Origin: Escherichia phage FL08
Sequence record: PP400785
Strand: one strand, 5' to 3'
Length of the DNA stretch: 64,000 nt
In this document: positions 5,909-27,745 of the stretch, one piece after another
Numbering within the stretch: position 1 is the first letter of the stretch
Layout of the letters: every line of letters begins with the position of its first letter
Notes under the pieces: model-generated
What the model was told of the DNA's origin: nothing
Seen by the model: only the letters and a program-made list of their open reading frames with translations
Database searches by the model: none
Made by a program: the position numbers and the translations under genes

Positions 5909-7039
5909 TTATGGATAGGTATAGATAATACCAGTTTCTAAAGCAGTTTTATGAATGATGTATCCATTACGTGATTCTTGGACATCAACTTCTGGATAGT
6001 CTTTCATCATCTTCTGAAGAGTGTAACGATGCAGGTAGTATTTACTATCTGGATCTTCAGTTTTCCAATCTTTACCTTCTTCAGTCATTTTTTGGATTTC
6101 ATCCATGACCCACCAACCGCACCAGATGTAAGCTGAGCTACGGTGTGGAAGAGGATGAACATAAGGTAATTCACCTTCTGGTTCTGGAGCAACTTTATCA
6201 GTCACTTGAACTTGACCTTCTGCCGTAATAGTTTTGCTATCATAATCAGCAGCAGTAACAGTCGCAGTAACTTCAATAGTTTGACTTCCAATAGATGAGG
6301 TATCAACGGTATATACATTAGTTGACCCTTCTACAGGAGAAGAATCTTTCTTCCATGAATACTCAATTTGCGCTTCTTCTGGAGCATCAGTAACATTAGC
6401 AGTAAATGTAGCCGAAGCATCTTGTTGAACGTTAATAGAAGGAGGAGTCAATGTAACCTGTGGATTCATTGTCTTCTTATTAACTGTTAATGATACTTCA
6501 TTAGAAGTAACTTCCTTTTCATTGTAATTTTCAGCAGTTACTTGGGCTACGCATTTAATTCTTTTTACTCCACTTGTAGTTGGAGTATAGCTAAATGTAG
6601 AGTTAGTTTCTCCACCAACTTGTGAATCATCTACATACCACTGATACGTAGCAGATGCACCTGGTGGCTGCGAAGCTAAAGCGGCAGTAAATTCAATAGC
6701 TGTTCCGATTACTCCAGCGTCAGGGCTATTAGGAGTTACAGCTAAGGTGGTCGTTTGTGTCTTATTTTGAACTGTGATAGTTGTAGTAGCTTCTGCTGTT
6801 TCAGCTTCAGCTTCTGGAACTGTATTTGTTGCAACTACTTTAATAGTCTTTTGACCGGCAGGTCCTTTTAATACATAACTAAAAGTTGCTTCAGCTCCAT
6901 CTTGTGGAACATCATCTACAGTCCAAGCATAGGTAATAGGTCCATCTCCAGTTTGACCACTGGGTGTAGCAGTAAACTGCTGAGTCTGATCTATAACTCC
7001 AGTAGGTGTTTTAGGAGTTATATCAACTGTAAAAGCCAT
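5909..7039 (-). CDS. hoc: highly immunogenic outer capsid protein Hoc
   Basis: 376 aa as in T4 Hoc; repeated Thr/Val-rich beta-type segments consistent with tandem Ig-like domains; ATG start. Confidence 0.85.
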   Translation of the reverse strand: MAFTVDITPKTPTGVIDQTQQFTATPSGQTGDGPITYAWTVDDVPQDGAEATFSYVLKGPAGQKTIKVVATNTVPEAEAETAEATTTITVQNKTQTTTLAVTPNSPDAGVIGTAIEFTAALASQPPGASATYQWYVDDSQVGGETNSTFSYTPTTSGVKRIKCVAQVTAENYNEKEVTSNEVSLTVNKKTMNPQVTLTPPSINVQQDASATFTANVTDAPEEAQIEYSWKKDSSPVEGSTNVYTVDTSSIGSQTIEVTATVTAADYDSKTITAEGQVQVTDKVAPEPEGELPYVHPLPHRSSAYIWCGWWVMDEIQKMTEEGKDWKTEDPDSKYYLHRYTLQKMMKDYPEVDVQESRNGYIIHKTALETGIIYTYP

Positions 7040-18834: not shown

Positions 18835-18888
18835 TCCTCATGTTATGTCAGTAAGACTACTATAACACAACACGAGGGACTTGTAAAC
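18835..18888 (-). repeat. 54-bp promoter-leader cassette, copy 1 (copy 2 at 34091..34144)
   Basis: tcctcatgttatgtcagtaagaCtaCtataacacaacacgagggacttgtaaac; 52/54 identical to the copy upstream of alc. Confidence 0.8.
18859..18888 (-). promoter_or_regulatory. early promoter (GTTTAC-N18-TATAGT) for the ORF at 18537..18827
   Basis: The - strand reads GTTTAC aagtccctcgtgttgtgt TATAGT; part of a 54-bp cassette repeated at 34091..34144. Confidence 0.55.
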
Positions 18889-20945
18889 TACATCTTGAAC
18901 TTTTTAGACATTCCGTTGATGTTAACCAAAGAAGCTAAGATTTGAGAAACTTCGTTTTCCTCTTCTTTTGATTCTTCTACAAGGAATTGATTAAATCCAG
19001 CCATTGGACGAACTTCACCAGTTTCCATTAGATGGTCGCCATCATATACTGATTCTTCTAATTGTTCAGAAGGAGGAACGATTGTACCTTCGATTAGATA
19101 CTTGTTATAAGCAGTTTCTTTCATAAAGTAAGTACTTACTTTATTAATCTTCAGTAAAATTCCACGTGGTAGAATAACTTCAGCTTCTGACGGAAATCCT
19201 GATAAATGACCCGGAACGATAACTTTGATTCGCTCAGCTCCTTTAATTACCATACCCACGCTAGTTTCAGCATCTTCATTAGCATATGTAGAATGACTAC
19301 CCATATGCATCAAATCTTCTGCATCAACGGAACCTTCTCCTTCACCAGAAAATACTGCGCCGGAATCATCTAGAGCCATATAGTTTTTACCATGCTCACC
19401 GAAGATATTTGGTTTAAGCGATGTGGATACGAAGTTCTTGAAATAGAACATTTTATTTTCAATGTTATGACGCAAAGTTTTAAAGGTAACTTCTTGTCCA
19501 CGGTAAAGTGTAGTTCCTGGAGGAAGAACTGAACCTTTAGCGAATGCAGAATCAAGCGTCTCAATATGTTTAATAGCTCGTTCCATATATTCTTCACGGG
19601 TAGAATCTGGTTTACCCAAAAGGAACGAGTTCATTTCAACATATGAATCTGCACAATAATCTTCAATTACATCAGATTCAGCTTGAGTTAATCCTTTTGG
19701 AGTTACTTCAGTGCTTGCGTATTCATATGCCTGAGCAGCAGATTCATTAATCAATTTATAAATGCCATTCATGACAAATTGAATAATAGCTGTCTTTTCA
19801 TCTGGCGTAGCTTTAGAACCTTTAACCAAATCATTGATAATTTTCTTAATAACATCAAAGCTATTAGAAATATTAATATCAGCAAGATCGCTTAAAATTT
19901 TATCAGTCTTATAATCAAAGAATTCTTTATTCTTTAAATATTCTTGAGAACCTTGATATGTTATATCGCTCTGTAACTTGATAGATGGATCACGTAAACG
20001 TGCATGGGCTAATGCAATATGATTTCGGAAGCTTTCGAGTTCATAATCACTAGATTTAAAACGAGAAGCGCTTCTCATACCGCCTATAGCTCCTTTGCTG
20101 AAGTTTGAACCAATTTGAATAACGCCAGAGTTCATTGGTCCTTCTGCTTTATACACCGGAACTTTAGATTCAAACTCTTGATATTTCTTAGCAGCGAAGC
20201 TATCACCCTGAAGTGAAGCATCAACAGTAGAATATTGAGCTTGTGCTGCTAATCGACGACTAATTTTAGTTTTCTGAATAACAGCTTGGTCCGTGCGCTT
20301 ATCATTTTCTAAAGCAATAGAAGCAGCAACAGCAACAGCTTTAGGAACAGCATTACCTGTTTTAACATCTACATAAACATCACCAACCTTTGATTCAACT
20401 TTTGTGAATAACTCAGTTGAAATAGGAGGTACACCTGGAATGTCTTCTAAATTGGCATTTTTACGATAAACCATAATATATGCGTACTTTTTATCATAAT
20501 CCCAGATTTCCTTTAAAAGAACATATCGACCTGCTCCTTTAGTACGTACTAAACGGTCAGCAATAACTTGCATTTGACGAGCAGCGCCATTTGTTTTACT
20601 CTTTAGTACGCGGAATAAGCATGCATCAATTTTATACTGTTTCATTGTTTGAAGAGCAGTATCAAAAACAGCGTTAATGACGCCAATTGGATTTCCACCC
20701 AAGTTTCTAAGTTTAACCAGTGATAATTTCTCGTTGACACCTATCATTACGATATGCATCATTTTATCGCCCGGCTTAACGTTTTTATTTGTATCACCTC
20801 CAGAGGTGTATGTACAAAATCTAAATCCAGGAAGCACGCTTTCTTCGCCGGCTTGAATAGCAAAAATTTGAGGTATTTTATGCTTAGGATTTAAGTTAAC
20901 AACCGGCGCCGAAGCGCCGTCAAATAATTCTGTAATAAGTTCCAT
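18888..20945 (-). CDS. Alt-family ADP-ribosyltransferase paralog (distal copy)
   Basis: 685 aa; N-terminus MELITELFD... and first ~230 aa clearly homologous to the upstream alt ORF; C-terminal region has R (TLYRGQ), STS (FVSTSL) and E-x-E (SEAEV) ART-like motifs; translationally coupled (TAA-atc-ATG). Confidence 0.8.
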   Translation of the reverse strand: MELITELFDGASAPVVNLNPKHKIPQIFAIQAGEESVLPGFRFCTYTSGGDTNKNVKPGDKMMHIVMIGVNEKLSLVKLRNLGGNPIGVINAVFDTALQTMKQYKIDACLFRVLKSKTNGAARQMQVIADRLVRTKGAGRYVLLKEIWDYDKKYAYIMVYRKNANLEDIPGVPPISTELFTKVESKVGDVYVDVKTGNAVPKAVAVAASIALENDKRTDQAVIQKTKISRRLAAQAQYSTVDASLQGDSFAAKKYQEFESKVPVYKAEGPMNSGVIQIGSNFSKGAIGGMRSASRFKSSDYELESFRNHIALAHARLRDPSIKLQSDITYQGSQEYLKNKEFFDYKTDKILSDLADINISNSFDVIKKIINDLVKGSKATPDEKTAIIQFVMNGIYKLINESAAQAYEYASTEVTPKGLTQAESDVIEDYCADSYVEMNSFLLGKPDSTREEYMERAIKHIETLDSAFAKGSVLPPGTTLYRGQEVTFKTLRHNIENKMFYFKNFVSTSLKPNIFGEHGKNYMALDDSGAVFSGEGEGSVDAEDLMHMGSHSTYANEDAETSVGMVIKGAERIKVIVPGHLSGFPSEAEVILPRGILLKINKVSTYFMKETAYNKYLIEGTIVPPSEQLEESVYDGDHLMETGEVRPMAGFNQFLVEESKEEENEVSQILASLVNINGMSKKFKM

Positions 20946-20948
20946 GAT

Positions 20949-22997
20949 TTATCCTTGAACGAACTTGTAAGGCATGTTTGTAATATCTATGCAAGACGCA
21001 ATAATTCCAAGAGATGATTCTACTTTCTGTTTAACATTTGATGAAACAAATGATGCAAAGTCAACTCTATCTTCTATATCACCTGTCATTGTAACTACTT
21101 CGCCGGTTTCCATTAAACGGTCACCGTCATAAATTACTGATTCGGTGAGTTCTTCGGTGGTCATAACTTCAGCTTGAATAAGCTTGTTGTTAGTTTTGAC
21201 TGTTCCATCATTGTAAGATGCATCAGTTATTTTATTAACTTTGACCATTAATCCACGTGGCAAAATGACTTCCATTTCATTTGAAGGCGCTAAACTTCCA
21301 CCGGGTAAAACAACATTGACTTTATCAGCCCCAGTAATAACCCATCCAATTCCGACTAAATTATCGCTAGAATTAACAAGCCCTTCATCATTTTTATCGA
21401 TAGAAATGTTTAGACGCTTTTCATCTGGTAAAACACCAACAGCTGAATCAGTCATCCAAGTACCAAAAATGTTTGGATATAATGATGTTGATACAAAATT
21501 TCTAAAATAAAAAACTCGATTTTTTACCATTGCTTCGTATATTGAAGGTAACATTCGTTGTGAACGATACAAAGTAATACCTTTTGGTAATCGTTCACCA
21601 TTTTTAAAGGCTGAATCTAAATTATCAATAGCTTTTTCTATGTCAGATGCTGTCAAAATACTTGTACGCTCATCTGGATTATATAATCCCAAAAGAGCAT
21701 TATTTATGTCTACATATCCTGAACCTACGTATTCACGAATTCCGCGTTTTTGTGCTGGTGTGTATTTAGATGAATCTTTATTTTCGACTATAGGATGTAA
21801 TGACCATCCAGCTGTAAGAGCATATCCACGTAATTCTCTTCGAATAATCTTTGTTTTTATTGCATTCCAAGAATTTTGTACTAACTCATTTGCAGCATCT
21901 TGGTTTAAATGCGAATGTTTGTTAATATTTCTTTCAAACCAAGCACCTTTATATTTTTCTAAAGTATCATCGACGATAGAAGCAATAGTTTCTAAAGTTT
22001 TTATTGAAGTAATAGATTCTTTTCGTAATTTTTCTAAAGCTTTATTTTTTATTTCTGCATTAATAATGGATTCTTTATCTTCAGGAATTATAGAAGCTTC
22101 TCTGAATGCCATCCCAGCTGTAACACTGCTAAGAGCATTCTCTAGTGCAAATCCTGAAGTAGAAATTACCGTTAATTCATTAGAATCAGAAATTAAAGGC
22201 GCATCAGCGGGTTTATTTAATTCTGCTGCTGAAGCCTCAAATTTTTGAAACATCGGTGTTTCAAATCTAGAAGATTCCAATGACTGACTTTGTGCAATTG
22301 CTCTACGGGAAATTTTAACTTTAACGATTACAGCTTGGTCAGAACGTTTATCATTTTCTTGTGCAATAGATGCTGCAATTGCCTCATTTTTGGTTACTTG
22401 AGCTCCGGTATCTTTATTGATATAAACATCACCGACCTTCGATTCAACTTTAGTAAAGAGCTCGGTACTAATTTCCGGAACTCCTGGAATGTCTTCTAGT
22501 GATACATTTTTGCGATGTATAAGAATATATGCATACTTTTTATCATAATCCCAGAGTTCCTTAAGAAGGACGTATCTGCCACCTGAACGACTACGGATAA
22601 GTCTATCAGCAATAACTTGAATTTGTCGAGCTTGACCAGCGGTTTTAGACTTAAGAATACGAAGCATACAAGCATCAATTTTATACTGACGCATTGTTTG
22701 CATTGCAACAGTAAAAACTGAATTGATATAATTAATTGGGCTTGGACCAAGACCTTTTAATTTAGCAATTGAACCTTTAGCGGTTAATGTAAAAGGAACA
22801 ATATGCATCATTTTATCGCCCATTTTTAAATCGCGATTAGTATCACCTCCAGATGTATAGGTACATAAACGAAAGCCTGGTTGTTCAATTGCATCATCAA
22901 CATGAACTGAAAAAATTTGCGGTATTTTCTTCTTTGGATTTAAGTTTGTAATCGGAAGAGTAGTATCTTCGTCAAATAATTCTGTAATAAGTTCCAT
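20949..22997 (-). CDS. alt: Alt ADP-ribosyltransferase (packaged, proximal copy)
   Basis: 682 aa from the second ATG (GAGAGG SD), equal to the T4 Alt length; MELITE/ protease-site motif; R (LYRSQ), STS (FVSTSL), E-x-E (NEMEV); late promoter upstream. Confidence 0.82.
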   Translation of the reverse strand: MELITELFDEDTTLPITNLNPKKKIPQIFSVHVDDAIEQPGFRLCTYTSGGDTNRDLKMGDKMMHIVPFTLTAKGSIAKLKGLGPSPINYINSVFTVAMQTMRQYKIDACMLRILKSKTAGQARQIQVIADRLIRSRSGGRYVLLKELWDYDKKYAYILIHRKNVSLEDIPGVPEISTELFTKVESKVGDVYINKDTGAQVTKNEAIAASIAQENDKRSDQAVIVKVKISRRAIAQSQSLESSRFETPMFQKFEASAAELNKPADAPLISDSNELTVISTSGFALENALSSVTAGMAFREASIIPEDKESIINAEIKNKALEKLRKESITSIKTLETIASIVDDTLEKYKGAWFERNINKHSHLNQDAANELVQNSWNAIKTKIIRRELRGYALTAGWSLHPIVENKDSSKYTPAQKRGIREYVGSGYVDINNALLGLYNPDERTSILTASDIEKAIDNLDSAFKNGERLPKGITLYRSQRMLPSIYEAMVKNRVFYFRNFVSTSLYPNIFGTWMTDSAVGVLPDEKRLNISIDKNDEGLVNSSDNLVGIGWVITGADKVNVVLPGGSLAPSNEMEVILPRGLMVKVNKITDASYNDGTVKTNNKLIQAEVMTTEELTESVIYDGDRLMETGEVVTMTGDIEDRVDFASFVSSNVKQKVESSLGIIASCIDITNMPYKFVQG

Positions 22998-23020
22998 CAT
23001 AGCCTCTCTAGTGTTTATTC

Positions 23021-23028: not shown

Positions 23029-23033
23029 AAATT

Positions 23034-23051
23034 AAAGGCCCGAAGGCCTTT
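23034..23051 (-). terminator. terminator hairpin after the ligase operon, preceding the alt late promoter
   Basis: The - strand reads AAAGGCC-UUCG-GGCCUUU followed by AAUUUUAUAAAUA. Confidence 0.6.
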
Positions 23052-23238
23052 AGTAATCTAGTGGTAAGAGAGTACGATATATTTCAAACTTTGGTCCTTT
23101 TTCATAGGCATCAAATGTTTCTGTAAATTTATTATAAGCGTATGCATCTACAAATTCGAGAATGACTTGTGATACAGAAGTAGAAACATCTCCACCTTCT
23201 TTTTGAGCAATGACAATTGTTTCTAAGTAAGCTTTCAT
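23050..23238 (-). CDS. hypothetical protein
   Basis: 62-aa ORF coupled to the ligase stop (ATGA overlap). Confidence 0.45.
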   Translation of the reverse strand: MKAYLETIVIAQKEGGDVSTSVSQVILEFVDAYAYNKFTETFDAYEKGPKFEIYRTLLPLDY

Positions 23239-24698
23239 AAACCAGTTACCTCATGAAAATCACCAAATACATCCTCGAATGTATTAGCTTTAGTTTTATC
23301 TTCACGTAAACGAATCGCAATCGGAAGAAATAATTTAACGTAATCAGTGCGGCCATCAGATTTTAACCAACCGTTGCATTCGCACTCTAGAATTTTTCCA
23401 ATATAATAATTTTGGTTTTCCATAATGCGAGTACGGTCAAGTTCATGCGATTTTACACCGGCTTTATCTTTTAAGCCTGAACCAGCATTTACCTTAATTT
23501 TTCCACACTCTGATTCAAGAATAAATCCACCCGCTTTAGTAGGGTCTTTACGGTGAGGATAAATTCCTACAATTTTTAAATCAACATCAATTACTTCTTT
23601 AAATTTATAGAGATTTTTTGAACGAGCATTTTCCCACAATCCATCGGTATTTTTGAGAATAATACCTTCAAGACCTTGGTCAATATACTTTTTATAAATT
23701 ACCTTAGCTTCATCTAGGTTATTTACTACCTGGTTTTCAATTAAAATTACTTTATCATAACCTGATGTCATTTGTTCTAGTTTAGAAAAACGTACATCAT
23801 ATTTCAAACGAAATGCAGGAAGACCGTATATTTCTACCAACGGGACATAATCCCAGACCTGAAACTTCATGCATTGAGCTTCTTTTTCAGAAATGGTTCC
23901 CTTTAAAGATTTATTGGCGATGCCATTAGATGCAGTACGTGATTCAGCTACTTCGGCGAATTCTTTAGCTTTACTAATTTCAGGATAAGCATCAAAAAGA
24001 AAATCTAGGCCTTCTGACTCCTTTTCAACTTGCTCATGGTATACCAATTCGCCATCAATTAACACACCTTCTGGATGAATCTGGCGAGCTTCTGCAGTCA
24101 TTTTGATTAACTCTTCCTTAAGAAGATCTAATCCTAGATATTCATTACCAGCTCGCGATAAAAGACGAACATCATCTAATTCATCGCCTCGGACTTCAGC
24201 AAAACACCGAGCTCCATCTGCTTTTAATTGCGCAAAGGCTGGAAACTTGATATTCTTACTAATGCCTTTTTCATCATAAGAACTTGCCAGCATTTGAGGT
24301 TGTTCAGGAATTAAACCTGGCCAAACTTTGTTTGCAATAGATACTGAAGCACCGCATTCAAGGTCTCGCATCATCACTCGACGCAAAACTTCAACATCAT
24401 CCTTTTTACCATCAGTGATATATCCAGTTAATTCCTCAATTGCTGCATTTCCAGTCAATTTCCGAGTAGCTAACGTGAATTCAATGAAGTCAAGCATATC
24501 GGTAATGGTCAGCATTCCAAAACTCTGGGTAGCAATACCAGGTTTAGGCCATTTCTTAATATAATACTGTAACCCACGAGAATAAGTCAGACGATATACT
24601 CGTTTAAGCAATTCATTATCTTTATTCTTTTCAAGAATTGCTTGCTTCTGCTTAGTTGATCCAATAGATGCTATTTCATTCAGAATTTTAAGAATCAT
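23235..24698 (-). CDS. 30: DNA ligase gp30
   Basis: 487 aa as in T4 DNA ligase; adenylation motif KADGAR; N-terminal MILKILNEIASIGSTKQKQAILEKNK. Confidence 0.95.
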   Translation of the reverse strand: MILKILNEIASIGSTKQKQAILEKNKDNELLKRVYRLTYSRGLQYYIKKWPKPGIATQSFGMLTITDMLDFIEFTLATRKLTGNAAIEELTGYITDGKKDDVEVLRRVMMRDLECGASVSIANKVWPGLIPEQPQMLASSYDEKGISKNIKFPAFAQLKADGARCFAEVRGDELDDVRLLSRAGNEYLGLDLLKEELIKMTAEARQIHPEGVLIDGELVYHEQVEKESEGLDFLFDAYPEISKAKEFAEVAESRTASNGIANKSLKGTISEKEAQCMKFQVWDYVPLVEIYGLPAFRLKYDVRFSKLEQMTSGYDKVILIENQVVNNLDEAKVIYKKYIDQGLEGIILKNTDGLWENARSKNLYKFKEVIDVDLKIVGIYPHRKDPTKAGGFILESECGKIKVNAGSGLKDKAGVKSHELDRTRIMENQNYYIGKILECECNGWLKSDGRTDYVKLFLPIAIRLREDKTKANTFEDVFGDFHEVTGL

Positions 24699-24964
24699 TG
24701 TTCATCCTTCAGAGTTTGATTTACATCTCTATTATAAATCAATTCATCATTAAGCTCAGGCAAAGACTTATGATATGCCGTTCTAACTTTATTTCCTTGC
24801 ATCCAGTGCTTGACGTAAATGAAACCTTGCTCTACACATTTTTTAAAAATTCGTTCATCCTTTTGAGCACGGAACTCTGGATTACATCTAAAAAATTGAT
24901 TTACGTGACCGTAATCACGTGTAGTATTACCTTCATTTTCATAAATAGTATGAACAACAAACAT
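24695..24964 (-). CDS. hypothetical protein (30.1 position)
   Basis: 89-aa ORF, ATGA-coupled to ligase. Confidence 0.55.
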   Translation of the reverse strand: MFVVHTIYENEGNTTRDYGHVNQFFRCNPEFRAQKDERIFKKCVEQGFIYVKHWMQGNKVRTAYHKSLPELNDELIYNRDVNQTLKDEQ

Positions 24965-25803
24965 TAGAATGCTCCTTGAAAAATATTATCACCACTAGTA
25001 GGTCTATTATACAAATACTCTATGCCACCAGGTTTAATATAGTTCCATGTCTGAAACGGATGTGTCTGATATGGATGATATAGATGATTATAAGGATTAA
25101 CTCCAGGTGTTCTCCAGGTAGTATTCCAAGGAAAAGAATTGTTTTTAACCATCTTCTCAATTACATCTTTTATAGCTTTTTCACTATCAAAACTTTCTTT
25201 ATTTTCCTTTGGTGAAAAAAGCTTATTTTCTACATCATTCCATGTATAAACTCGCTGCGCAGTTTTTGGAATATTGTCACGCTCTCCTCGAGCCATCCAA
25301 TAAACAGGAACATTTAATATTTCACTCGCATGATCGCAGTGATGAGCGAGATCGTCAATATAACAAATCACGTTATATTTCTCTTTTGCCTTTTTGAACA
25401 GCTCTTCTTTTGAAGAATCATGACCACACATCATTACTTCTGAGAAGGCACCAGGAAAAAGAGCATTCAAATTAAATTGACGATTCAACAGAGCGTCAAT
25501 AGAATCACCCAATGCGGTAACAGCTACAAAATTATAATCTTCTTTTAATTTGTTAATCACACACAGGGCATCTTTATATGGAGACAAGTAACGAATAAAA
25601 TCTGAACGATTGTATTTTTCAATTAACTTGACGCCAAGTTCTTCATCACAATTAAAGAGTTTACCCGGAGAAATAAATTTCTCATCTTGGATCATTTTTA
25701 AAATATGTTCTAACGGAAGATTATATTTCTGGGCAAAATAAGGAAGGCCTGATTGCCAGCTTAAACAAACTCCATCAATATCAGTTAAAATAGTTGGCTT
25801 CAT
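24964..25803 (-). CDS. HAD-superfamily hydrolase-like protein (30.2 position)
   Basis: 279 aa; N-terminal TDIDGV matches the HAD motif I DxDx(T/V). Confidence 0.6.
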   Translation of the reverse strand: MKPTILTDIDGVCLSWQSGLPYFAQKYNLPLEHILKMIQDEKFISPGKLFNCDEELGVKLIEKYNRSDFIRYLSPYKDALCVINKLKEDYNFVAVTALGDSIDALLNRQFNLNALFPGAFSEVMMCGHDSSKEELFKKAKEKYNVICYIDDLAHHCDHASEILNVPVYWMARGERDNIPKTAQRVYTWNDVENKLFSPKENKESFDSEKAIKDVIEKMVKNNSFPWNTTWRTPGVNPYNHLYHPYQTHPFQTWNYIKPGGIEYLYNRPTSGDNIFQGAF

Positions 25804-26264
25804 AGAGAGTCTCTTAATAGGTTTAACACATCAATAAATTCAGCTTCGGTTAGTATTGTATCATCTTTTGTTAGACCACTAGCCATGCTGTGCTTCAAAA
25901 CTTTTCCTTTCGAGGCTTGTAATGCATCACGAAAGCCCCTGTTTTGGATCGCTGCTTCAAAATATGCATTTGTGTATAATTCTTTCCATGCTTCGGAATA
26001 TCTTGAAAATGGAACTCCAAGCCAGAAGAGGGTCCCACGGTCCTGAGCTCTAGCATAAGCTCGTCCAGCTTGTTGGGCGGCAAGCCCGGATAACCCAAAT
26101 ATACGTCTTTGCTGCTCAACATTTTTCACCTTGCATCCTTGGAGGAATCCTTCAAGACCTCCGAATTGAATACCATCCATGACGAAAGGCCATTGGGCGA
26201 AATTACTTAATGCGCATGATGGCCATCTAAAATTGCTTCTAATCTCTAACTCAGACATTTTCAA
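25800..26264 (-). CDS. NADAR/YbiA-like protein (30.3 position)
   Basis: 154 aa; ...LSNFAQWPFVMDGIQFGGLEGFLQGCK... resembles the YbiA/NADAR signature (SNF..DG..F..E..FQ..K). Confidence 0.55.
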   Translation of the reverse strand: MKMSELEIRSNFRWPSCALSNFAQWPFVMDGIQFGGLEGFLQGCKVKNVEQQRRIFGLSGLAAQQAGRAYARAQDRGTLFWLGVPFSRYSEAWKELYTNAYFEAAIQNRGFRDALQASKGKVLKHSMASGLTKDDTILTEAEFIDVLNLLRDSL

Positions 26265-26457
26265 TACTTATAATTTCAACATCAGCCCAATGACCATAGC
26301 AAGGAAGACGAAATTCAACTGGCCAGTTAGGGTCCTTTTCTAATATAATAGACTTAACTTGTGGTTCTTCATGTTCATCAGTATATGGATTTTTATCTGT
26401 TACTTTATATGTGACCTTAATGTATTGAATTCCAAAAATCTTATTAATTATATTCAT
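26251..26457 (-). CDS. hypothetical protein
   Basis: 68-aa ORF in the densely packed 30.x early block; start not verified. Confidence 0.45.
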   Translation of the reverse strand: MNIINKIFGIQYIKVTYKVTDKNPYTDEHEEPQVKSIILEKDPNWPVEFRLPCYGHWADVEIISIENV

Positions 26458-27412: not shown

Positions 27413-27745
27413 TTATTTTACTACTTTCCAGTGTTGCATGTCAAGTTTACCGACTTTTTTCATCTTCTCAATTAAGCGTTCGGCACGTTGGCGAGCTGTA
27501 ACATAATGCCATTCGCCTAATTCATTTTGTTCAATTTTTCCAACGATTACTGTATTCAATTCATAAATCCAACCAGTAAAGAAATTATGAACTTGAATTG
27601 TAAAGGTGAAATCTGTTCCCATACCTTCTGTTGTTTCTACTTCAATAATATCACCTTCAACTGCCATTAAGAACCACATAGTTTCATCATATTTACCATT
27701 GAAGCATTTAGTTTTAACTGCAGCGTTCAGATTAATCGTTTTCAT
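27413..27745 (-). CDS. hypothetical protein
   Basis: 110-aa ORF. Confidence 0.5.
   Translation of the reverse strand: MKTINLNAAVKTKCFNGKYDETMWFLMAVEGDIIEVETTEGMGTDFTFTIQVHNFFTGWIYELNTVIVGKIEQNELGEWHYVTARQRAERLIEKMKKVGKLDMQHWKVVK

What the first reader, a model, noticed from the sequence alone, without database searches (positions are those of the whole stretch)
24964..26264. HAD-like hydrolase and NADAR/YbiA-like protein encoded directly upstream of DNA ligase
The 279-aa ORF carries a DIDGV HAD motif (nucleotidase/phosphatase-like). The 154-aa ORF carries an SNF...DG...FQ..K pattern typical of NADAR/YbiA domains, a family recently implicated in removing ADP-ribose from DNA bases. Placing a possible DNA de-ADP-ribosylase in the same early transcription unit as DNA ligase and next to the alt ART genes suggests a DNA- or nucleotide-repair counter-defence role, e.g. 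against DarT-type toxins. This is a functional hypothesis, not a demonstrated activity.
Basis: inference. Interest (0 to 1): 0.5.

Follow-up and report, generated by a model that had tools for sequence, protein, structure and literature searches.

The report
Known anti-DarT NADAR plus HAD phosphatase
These are T4 genes 30.3 and 30.2: the first is AdfN, an enzyme already shown to strip toxic ADP-ribose from phage DNA and so defeat the bacterial DarTG1 defence, and the second is an uncharacterised nucleotidase-like HAD phosphatase, so the finding is correct but mostly already published.

Summary
The window is a Tequatrovirus (T4-like) genome. Both ORFs are real, lie on the minus strand, and belong to a start/stop-overlapping run 30.4-30.3-30.2-30.1-30 (DNA ligase).

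The 154-aa ORF is more likely 152 aa, starting at the ATG at 26258. It is gp30.3 (Pfam PF08010), 97.4% identical to T4 gp30.3 and full length. It keeps E36, K43 and the phage-type His123. Its model matches only the three solved NADAR structures.

T4 gp30.3 is already published as AdfN. It is a guanine-specific DNA ADP-ribosylglycohydrolase that T4 and T2 need to plate on DarTG1 hosts. It is inactive against thymine or DarT2 (PMC11825919, PMC11125620).

The 279-aa ORF is gp30.2. It has a complete HAD phosphatase core (D8/D10, T96, K132, D150/D151) with a helical C1 cap, and is nearest to 5'(3')-deoxyribonucleotidases. It also carries a disordered aromatic C-terminal tail. I found no literature on its function, and nothing ties it to ADP-ribose.

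Gene 30.2 sits upstream of ligase in 72 of 73 orthologous loci, but the whole block is syntenic. The one open angle is that AdfN needs an unidentified T-even factor. gp30.2 is an untested candidate.

The parts
25800..26258 (-). Gene 30.3 = adfN (anti-DarT factor NADAR), 152 aa from the ATG at 26258. The ORF listing extends it to a TTG at 26264 (154 aa). Catalytic codons: E36 at 26153-26151, K43 at 26132-26130, phage-type His123 at 25892-25890. The C-terminal helix (residues 138-151) is intact.
   Evidence: Pfam PF08010 Phage_30_3, E 6e-69. 97.4% identity to T4 gp30.3 with 4 substitutions. Invariant E36/K43/H123. AF2 pLDDT 81. Foldseek top 3 are the NADAR structures 2b3w/8bau/8bat. hhalign against E. 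coli YbiA gives prob 86%, E 5.5e-6. Function from PMC11825919 and PMC11125620.
25219..25803 (-). Gene 30.2, residues 1-195: HAD phosphatase core with a helical C1 cap (cap about residues 16-86). Motif I is D8-x-D10 (codons 25782-25780 and 25776-25774). Motif II is T96, motif III is K132, motif IV is D150-D151. W16, R108 and N111 are also conserved.
24964..25218 (-). Gene 30.2, residues 196-279 plus stop: a fast-evolving, mostly disordered W/Y/P-rich tail. It ends in a conserved short motif, GIEYLYNRPT (about residues 260-269).
   Evidence: pLDDT below 50 for residues 226-260 and 270-279. 6 of the 9 differences from T4 lie in the tail. The motif is found in 14 of 57 long homologues, and related LRAYY/LRATF endings occur in others.
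24695..24964 (-). Gene 30.1, 89 aa, DUF3045. It sits between 30.2 and ligase. Its start overlaps the 30.2 stop (TAATG) and its stop overlaps the ligase start (ATGA).
   Evidence: Pfam PF11243, E 1.7e-61. Junctions read.
23235..24698 (-). Gene 30, ATP-dependent DNA ligase, 487 aa.
   Evidence: Pfam PF01068, E 2e-32. 99% identical to T4.
26251..26457 (-). Gene 30.4, 68 aa, unknown function. Its stop overlaps the start of 30.3.
   Evidence: phrog_2042. Junction read.
27415..27444 (-). Best sigma-70-like promoter match upstream of the 30.x run (TTGACA-18-TAAAAT, 11 of 12). It is a candidate early promoter for the unit.
   Evidence: This is a consensus match only, and the number of such sites in the region equals the shuffled expectation.
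23033..23052 (-). Terminator-like hairpin followed by a T-run just after the small gene downstream of ligase. No such site was predicted on this strand between about 27831 and here other than a weak 5-pair stem at 26691-26674.
18888..23000 (-). Two tandem Alt-like ADP-ribosyltransferase genes (685 and 683 aa, 41% identical), downstream of ligase.
   Evidence: Pfam PF03496 on both. BLASTP comparison. The second copy is common in Tequatrovirus records.

Best explanation
This segment holds genes 30.3 and 30.2 of a T4-like phage.

Gene 30.3 is adfN. It encodes a small stand-alone NADAR-fold N-glycosidase made early in infection. The host DarT1 toxin attaches ADP-ribose to guanine bases of phage DNA, and AdfN cuts it off again. 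Replication in DarTG1-carrying bacteria is thereby restored. The activity was shown for the T4 protein, and it is inferred here from 97.4% identity, intact catalytic residues and an intact C-terminal helix.

Gene 30.2 is translationally coupled to 30.3. It encodes a Mg-dependent HAD-superfamily phosphomonoesterase of the capped C1, small-substrate type. Its nearest relatives are 5'(3')-deoxyribonucleotidases. It most likely dephosphorylates a nucleoside monophosphate. This is inference only, and the substrate is unknown. Its disordered aromatic tail may tether it to another protein.

Confidence for AdfN identity and mechanism is about 0.95. Confidence that gp30.2 is a catalytically competent HAD phosphatase is about 0.85. 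Confidence that its substrate is a (deoxy)nucleoside monophosphate is about 0.45.
For: AdfN:
- Pfam Phage_30_3, E 6e-69.
- 148 of 152 residues identical to T4 gp30.3, with the same C-terminus.
- E36, Q40, K43 and H123 are invariant in homologues down to 40% identity.
- The AF2 model has pLDDT 81. Its only credible PDB matches are YbiA, Phytophthora NADAR and Geobacter DarG1-type NADAR (prob 1.00/0.99/0.96). The next hit has prob 0.04.
- hhalign to E. coli YbiA gives E 5.5e-6 and aligns E36 and K43 with the YbiA E..FQ..K motif.
- Published genetics and biochemistry for T4 AdfN: deleting adfN from T4 or T2 abolishes plating on DarTG1; ectopic AdfN rescues RB69; E36A and K43A are impaired; purified protein removes ADP-ribose from DNA; there is no effect on DarTG2.

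gp30.2:
- All four HAD motifs are invariant or nearly so across 43 and 142 homologues.
- The core model has pLDDT above 90, with helices between motifs I and II forming a C1 cap.
- Foldseek returns 110 PDB hits at E<=1e-3, all HAD among those shown. The best target-normalised TM scores are for deoxyribonucleotidase-like proteins: 3bwv 0.71, 4yih 0.68.
- The profile's top PDB hit is mouse cdN. DvDGvlvkWqSgL aligns to NMDGVLADFESGL.
- NT5C is the most frequent specific Pfam family among remote relatives, 43 of 142.
Against: AdfN:
- Nothing in the sequence argues against it.
- The protein here was not assayed, and it has four substitutions relative to T4: A67S, E89P, R107K, M125I.

gp30.2:
- The protein itself hits no Pfam or NCBIfam model.
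- The PDB profile hit to cdN is sub-significant (E 0.06).
- It shows no relationship to the one characterised phage dNMP phosphatase, T5 Dmp (hhalign prob 2%).
- I found no publication on its function.
Confidence: 0.85

Rival explanations
1. gp30.2 is the unidentified T-even-specific factor that AdfN from T4 needs for full activity. It would stabilise or localise the NADAR, perhaps through its disordered tail.
For: Both published studies found that AdfN from T4 fails to neutralise DarT1 in uninfected cells. It also only weakly rescues T5 and Bas25. The authors propose an unknown T-even protein. 30.3 and 30.2 share an ATGA stop/start overlap here and in all Tequatrovirus and Mosigvirus loci examined. 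RB69-type phages, which are rescued by ectopic AdfN, carry 30.2.
Against: In about half of the T4-like loci that have 30.2 next to ligase, no 30.3 lies within 6 kb. In several genomes the two genes are about 60 kb apart. Some phages have the His-type NADAR abutting ligase with no 30.2 at that locus (L026, L027). Any of the roughly 100 other conserved T-even proteins fits the genetic data equally well. No interaction prediction could be run.
Confidence: 0.08
2. gp30.2 is a DNA-end 3'-phosphatase, a PNKP-like 'healing' enzyme that prepares nicks for the adjacent DNA ligase.
Against: The model has a roughly 70-residue helical C1 cap between motifs I and II. From established knowledge of HAD enzymes, those acting on macromolecular ends (PNKP, FCP/SCP, MDP-1) are capless. 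The Pnkp match is to the shared Rossmannoid core only (126-131 aligned residues, against 155-180 for capped enzymes). The whole alt-ligase-30.x-gp31-cd block is syntenic, so adjacency is weak evidence.
Confidence: 0.08
3. gp30.2 acts on a non-nucleotide or NAD-related small phosphoester, for example NMN/NaMN, ribose-5-phosphate from ADP-ribose breakdown, or a sugar phosphate. It would not act on dNMPs.
For: Fold searches rank generic subfamily-IA HAD phosphatases of many specificities as highly as nucleotidases. The gene sits among NAD-consuming or ADP-ribose-handling genes (two alt genes and adfN).
Against: The only sequence-level links are to NT5C-type nucleotidases. The aromatic residue W16 aligns with the base-stacking Phe of cdN. 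That this Phe stacks on the base is recalled knowledge, not tested here.
Confidence: 0.2
4. gp30.3 in this phage works mainly on soluble ADP-ribose derivatives or riboflavin-type intermediates, like housekeeping YbiA, and not on DNA.
For: A 2022 comparative-genomics paper proposed, before the experiments, that phage NADARs prefer low-molecular-weight ADPr derivatives. The best single structural match is YbiA.
Against: Direct in vitro removal of ADP-ribose from DNA, and the DarTG1 plating phenotype of T4 and T2 adfN deletions, were shown for a 97.4%-identical protein.
Confidence: 0.04

Closest known systems
T4 AdfN (gp30.3), anti-DarT factor NADAR (Johannesman et al., Nat Commun 2025, PMC11825919; in vitro activity in Toxins 2024, PMC11125620)
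   Same: Orthologue: 148 of 152 residues identical. Same genomic position between 30.4 and 30.2. Same catalytic E36 and K43, same His123 in the last strand, and a full-length C-terminal helix.
   Different: Four substitutions (A67S, E89P, R107K, M125I), none at a conserved catalytic position. This allele has not been assayed.
DarG1-type NADAR antitoxins (e.g. Geobacter lovleyi NADAR, PDB 8bat) and Phytophthora NADAR (8bau)
   Same: Same fold (Foldseek prob 0.96-0.99) and the same reaction, guanine-ADP-ribose N-glycosidic cleavage (literature).
   Different: The phage protein lacks the N-terminal extension of DarG1. It has His where DarT1-linked NADARs have Asp. It is not linked to a DarT gene. 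The T4 version cannot act as an antitoxin in uninfected cells.
E. coli YbiA (PDB 2b3w), housekeeping NADAR N-glycosidase
   Same: Best structural match (TM 0.63, E 6e-4). hhalign E 5.5e-6, with the SNF..DG..E..FQ..K motif aligned.
   Different: 19% identity. Glu instead of His in the last strand. Different biological role (riboflavin-intermediate damage control, LexA-regulated operon; literature).
Mammalian cytosolic and mitochondrial 5'(3')-deoxyribonucleotidases (cdN/mdN; Pfam NT5C) and the bacterial deoxyribonucleotidase-like protein 3bwv
   Same: HAD core with a four-helix C1 cap. A DxDGV motif followed by an aromatic residue and SGL. Among the best structural matches. Remote relatives of gp30.2 are Pfam NT5C members.
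   Different: Only 15-20% identity. gp30.2 itself does not reach any Pfam threshold. It has an extra 85-residue disordered tail. Substrate untested.
Phage T5 Dmp, deoxynucleoside-5'-monophosphatase
   Same: The only phage dNMP phosphatase I know to be biochemically defined. It also has a DxDGT motif near its N-terminus. It is a possible functional analogue.
   Different: No detectable homology beyond motif I (hhalign prob 2%). It is a pre-early gene in the T5 terminal repeat.

Membership tests
NADAR superfamily, phage gp30.3/AdfN clade | [quoted passage not shown] | tested here: met
   AF2 model pLDDT 81, pTM 0.78. The only PDB matches with prob above 0.9 are the three NADAR structures.
NADAR superfamily, phage gp30.3/AdfN clade | Catalytic Glu and Lys in the E-x-x-x-Q-x-x-K helix (T4 E36, K43) | tested here: met
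   E36, Q40 and K43 are present and invariant in alignment A1. They align with YbiA SEHYFQAQK. Mutational importance comes from PMC11825919.
NADAR superfamily, phage gp30.3/AdfN clade | Histidine in the last beta-strand, replacing the Glu/Asp of other NADARs | tested here: met
   H123 is invariant and lies in predicted strand 120-123. The criterion is taken from PMC11125620 and PMC11825919.
NADAR superfamily, phage gp30.3/AdfN clade | Intact C-terminal helix (lost in the inactive RB69 allele) | tested here: met
   The ORF runs to ...LTEAEFIDVLNLLRDSL, identical to T4. Helix 138-151 is present in the model.
NADAR superfamily, phage gp30.3/AdfN clade | Sequence-profile membership (Pfam PF08010 Phage_30_3) | tested here: met
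   E 6.3e-69, 230 bits against a cutoff of 36, covering the full model.
NADAR superfamily, phage gp30.3/AdfN clade | Guanine-ADP-ribose DNA glycohydrolase activity and DarTG1 counter-defence | not testable with these tools
   Shown for the T4 orthologue only.
HAD (haloacid dehalogenase-like) phosphatase superfamily | Four catalytic motifs: I DxD, II S/T, III K, IV DD/ExxxD | tested here: met
   D8, D10 and K132 are invariant and T96, D150 and D151 nearly so in A2. D8, D10, K132 and D151 are at least 90% conserved across 142 remote relatives.
HAD (haloacid dehalogenase-like) phosphatase superfamily | Rossmannoid HAD core fold | tested here: met
5'(3')-deoxyribonucleotidase family (Pfam NT5C, PF06941) | Match to the family profile above its gathering score | tested here: not met
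   gp30.2 has no Pfam hit at E<=1. Only remote relatives reach NT5C (43 of 142, best E 4e-10). It is therefore filed as NT5C-like, not as a member.
5'(3')-deoxyribonucleotidase family (Pfam NT5C, PF06941) | Helical C1 cap and an aromatic residue eight positions after the nucleophile that contacts the nucleotide | tested here: inconclusive
   The C1 cap is present. W16 aligns with Phe of mouse cdN in a sub-significant alignment (E 0.06). The role of that Phe is recalled knowledge.
5'(3')-deoxyribonucleotidase family (Pfam NT5C, PF06941) | dNMP phosphohydrolase activity | not testable with these tools
PNKP-type polynucleotide 3'-phosphatases | Capless (C0) HAD domain that admits a polynucleotide end | tested here: not met

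The most novel reading that the evidence does not exclude
gp30.2 is translationally coupled to adfN and carries a disordered tail with a conserved terminal motif. It could be the missing T-even-specific potentiating factor of AdfN. More broadly, it could be a nucleotide-pool enzyme that co-operates with AdfN and ligase in clearing ADP-ribosylation damage. Either would explain why AdfN from T4 fails outside T-even infections.
Probability: 0.08. Interest if true: 0.55.

Novelty: already known. Interest (0 to 1): 0.2.

Why it matters
The main point, a phage NADAR that reverses DarT1 DNA ADP-ribosylation, was published in 2024-2025, so this locus adds only another intact allele.

Two things remain useful. 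First, gp30.2 is a very widespread T4-superfamily HAD phosphatase: about 1,450 phage records and about 1,400 clusters at 50% identity. It has no assigned function, and a substrate panel would settle that cheaply. Second, the published puzzle of the unknown T-even factor needed by AdfN can be tested directly, starting with the genes that are translationally coupled to adfN.

Tried and rejected
1. Single-sequence searches of both proteins against PDB sequences found nothing meaningful. Profile searches gave only sub-significant but correct top hits.

2. NCBIfam and PADLOC have no model for either protein. In particular there was no hit to any PADLOC defence-protein model.

3. Literature searches for gp30.2 or gene 30.2 found no relevant paper. 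Two earlier searches failed on term length, as did one in-paper term search.

4. I tested whether T5 Dmp is a homologue of gp30.2. It is not detectably so.

5. I tested whether 30.2-ligase adjacency is special. It is the most conserved pairing: 43 of 43 and 12 of 13 in the two divergent bins. But gp31, cd and alt are also retained within 6 kb in most loci, so I do not treat adjacency as evidence of functional coupling.

6. I checked for HAD-ligase fusions where the tblastn ranges overlap (L068, L076 and others). The two genes are in different frames, so they are not fused (arithmetic on coordinates).

7. The nested ORF 30.3' was rejected as coding.

Full report
**What is there**

The window is part of a Tequatrovirus genome. 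The 1.9-kb stretch around the finding is 97% identical to many Escherichia, Shigella and Yersinia T4-like phages.

The minus strand carries an uninterrupted run of genes:
- two alt-like ADP-ribosyltransferases, 18888-20945 and 20949-23000. Both match PF03496 and they are 41% identical to each other.
- a 62-aa gene.
- gene 30, ATP-dependent DNA ligase, 23235-24698 (PF01068).
- gene 30.1, 24695-24964 (DUF3045).
- gene 30.2, 24964-25803 (279 aa).
- gene 30.3, 25800-26264 or 25800-26258.
- genes 30.4 to 30.8 further upstream, then gp31 (Cpn10) and dCMP deaminase.

The junctions 30.4/30.3, 30.3/30.2 (ATGA), 30.2/30.1 (TAATG) and 30.1/30 (ATGA) all overlap. This is the usual sign of translational coupling.

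A consensus scan places the best promoter-like site on this strand at 27444-27415. It places terminator-like hairpins at 27852-27831 and 23052-23033. That fits one transcription unit from the 30.x genes through ligase. The scan is no better than shuffled sequence in overall count, so this is only 'consistent with'.

**Checking the observation**

The coordinates and both motifs are correct. DIDGV is residues 8-12 of the 279-aa ORF. The smaller ORF contains SNF, DG and EGFLQGCK.

The 154-aa length comes from a TTG. The ATG two codons downstream (26258) gives 152 aa. That matches the length of close homologues and the residue numbering used for T4 in the literature (E36, K43). I take 26258 as the start.

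Selection acts on the 30.3 frame. Of 23 nucleotide differences from T4, 17 are third-position, and only 4 amino acids change.

**Gene 30.3 is AdfN**

Sequence and structure evidence obtained here:
- The protein matches Pfam PF08010 (Phage_30_3) end to end at E 6e-69.
- It is 97.4% identical to T4 gp30.3, with the same C-terminus.
- In an alignment reaching 40% identity, E36, Q40, K43 and H123 are invariant.
- An AlphaFold2 model (pLDDT 81, pTM 0.78) was searched against the PDB with Foldseek. The only credible matches were E. coli YbiA (2b3w), Phytophthora NADAR with ADP-ribose (8bau) and Geobacter NADAR (8bat). Their probabilities were 1.00, 0.99 and 0.96. The fourth hit had probability 0.04.
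- A profile of the family aligns to E. coli YbiA with hhalign E 5.5e-6. This puts E36 and K43 on the YbiA E..FQ..K motif.

The function is already published:
- Schuller-group work (Toxins 2024, PMC11125620) showed that T4 gp30.3 hydrolyses ADP-ribose from guanosine in DNA but not from thymidine. It also showed that the protein cannot rescue DarT1 toxicity in cells.
- Johannesman et al. (Nat Commun 2025, PMC11825919) mapped DarTG1 resistance of T-even phages to gene 30.3 and renamed it adfN.
- They showed that T4 and T2 adfN deletions cannot plaque on DarTG1 hosts, and that ectopic AdfN rescues RB69.
- They showed that E36A, K43A and a C-terminal truncation are impaired, and that the purified protein de-ADP-ribosylates DNA.
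- They showed that it has no effect on DarTG2.
- RB69 is sensitive because a frameshift removes the last 15 residues. The allele in this window is full length.

**Gene 30.2 is a capped HAD phosphatase, nearest to deoxyribonucleotidases**

- The protein has no Pfam or NCBIfam hit of its own. It belongs to PHROG 420, of unknown function.
- Across 43 homologues down to 35% identity, D8, D10 and K132 are invariant. T96, D150 and D151 are nearly so. This is the complete HAD phosphotransferase motif set, including the second Asp that distinguishes phosphatases from dehalogenases (the significance of the second Asp is established HAD knowledge).
- The AF2 model is very confident for residues 1-195 (pLDDT 90-98). 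It shows about six helices inserted between motifs I and II, which is a C1 cap. Residues 226-260 and 270-279 are disordered.
- Foldseek against the PDB gives 110 hits at E<=1e-3, and the 50 listed are all HAD. The best target-normalised TM scores and lowest rmsd are for deoxyribonucleotidase-like proteins: 3bwv at 0.71, human cdN 4yih at 0.68, and mdN.
- At the sequence level, the family profile's top PDB hit is mouse cytosolic 5'(3')-deoxyribonucleotidase. It aligns DGVlvkWqSGL with DGVLADFESGL, but only at E 0.06.
- An exhaustive HMM search found 1,395 cluster representatives at E<=1e-3. Of 142 relatives scanned, 43 match Pfam NT5C. This is the commonest specific family, followed by generic HAD models.
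- The one biochemically defined phage dNMP phosphatase I know, T5 Dmp, is not detectably related.

I therefore call gp30.2 an NT5C-like HAD phosphomonoesterase whose most likely substrate is a nucleoside monophosphate. The substrate is an inference. I found no experimental literature. Some GenBank records already annotate it as a 5'-nucleotidase.

**Are 30.2, 30.3 and ligase functionally linked?**

I fetched 31 loci around NADAR homologues and 78 around 30.2 homologues from IMG/VR, and located the neighbouring genes by tblastn.
- Gene 30.2 lies just upstream of ligase in 72 of 73 orthologous loci with enough flank, usually within 600 bp. This holds even where ligase identity has dropped to 35-40%.
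- A 30.3 homologue lies within about 1.3 kb upstream of 30.2 in only 36 of those 72 loci.
- In Klebsiella and Enterobacter T4-likes the two genes are tens of kilobases apart.
- In two loci (L026, L027) the NADAR directly abuts ligase with no 30.2.
- The background synteny is also high. gp31, cd and alt are retained within 6 kb in most of the same loci.

So the HAD-ligase pairing is the tightest in the block, but it cannot be taken as strong evidence of coupled function. The NADAR is a more mobile passenger. The C1 cap argues against gp30.2 being a PNKP-like DNA-end phosphatase.

**The remaining open question**

Both experimental papers report that AdfN from T4 works only in the context of a T-even infection. 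The Nat Commun authors propose an unidentified T-even protein that stabilises or localises it.

gp30.2 is translationally coupled to adfN in Tequatrovirus and Mosigvirus, and it is present in RB69-type phages. It carries a fast-evolving disordered tail that ends in a conserved short motif: GIEYLxxQPT in 14 of 57 long homologues, with related LRAYY/LRATF endings in others. That makes it one reasonable candidate.

The evidence is circumstantial, and the frequent separation of the two genes counts against it. I put this at about 8%.

**Verdict**

The HAD gene is an ordinary-looking, uncharacterised, nucleotidase-like enzyme. Interest is low.

Noticed in passing
window 25895-26122 (-): A 75-aa ORF nested in another frame inside 30.3. 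I recall T4 annotating it as 30.3'. Between this phage and T4 it has 13 amino-acid changes in 75 residues, because the nucleotide differences fall on its codon positions 2 and 3. The same differences are mostly silent in 30.3. It looks like a non-coding by-product of the 30.3 frame.
   Followed up: yes
window 24964-25218 (-), residues 196-279 of gp30.2: A disordered W/Y/P-rich tail that evolves faster than the core (6 of the 9 differences from T4). It ends in a conserved short motif, GIEYLYNRPT. Other homologues end in LRAYY, LKAYY or LRATF. This pattern of a hydrophobic residue, two other residues, then two aromatics resembles clamp- or partner-binding peptides. I have not tested that.
   Followed up: partly
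L014 (IMGVR_UViG_2974741249_000001), about 5990-6342: A Mosigvirus-like genome whose adfN has an in-frame deletion. It joins MSELEIRS directly to IKVKNHEQQ, removing the SNF/DG/E36/K43 segment. It is a second natural loss-of-function allele besides the RB69 frameshift, and I would predict this phage to be DarTG1-sensitive.
   Followed up: partly
window 18888-20945 and 20949-23000 (-): Two tandem Alt-like ADP-ribosyltransferase genes, 41% identical over the full length. About 400 phage records match the second copy at 95% identity or more, and the listed examples (RB10, RB68, D5505) have two matching places each, so this is a known variant arrangement.
   Followed up: partly
L026, L027; L033-L110: Gene 30.2 is glued to the 5' side of DNA ligase in 72 of 73 orthologous T4-superfamily loci, in some with a 2-nt gap or a 40-nt overlap. 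The NADAR gene is there in only half. In L026 and L027 the NADAR occupies the slot next to ligase with no 30.2.
   Followed up: partly
proteins P0173 (591 aa), P0229 (660 aa), P0125 (430 aa), P0162 (365 aa): Remote relatives of gp30.2 occur fused to long N- or C-terminal regions that have no Pfam match. By eye, P0162's extension contains a DFTNGRHR stretch reminiscent of ParB-like nucleases. This is unverified.
   Followed up: no
literature, PMC11125620 methods: The Toxins 2024 paper lists its 'T4 phage NADAR (gp30.3)' construct as residues 1-208. T4 and this window encode 152 aa (154 from the TTG). PHROG 652 also has a 296-position profile, with the NADAR part at positions 126-272. Some family members therefore carry an N-terminal extension. 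The exact protein assayed in that paper should be checked.
   Followed up: no
window 26258 vs 26264 (-): The mechanical ORF call starts 30.3 at a TTG. The ATG two codons later fits the homologue lengths and the published residue numbering. The ATG overlaps the 30.4 stop region (ATGTCTGA).
   Followed up: yes
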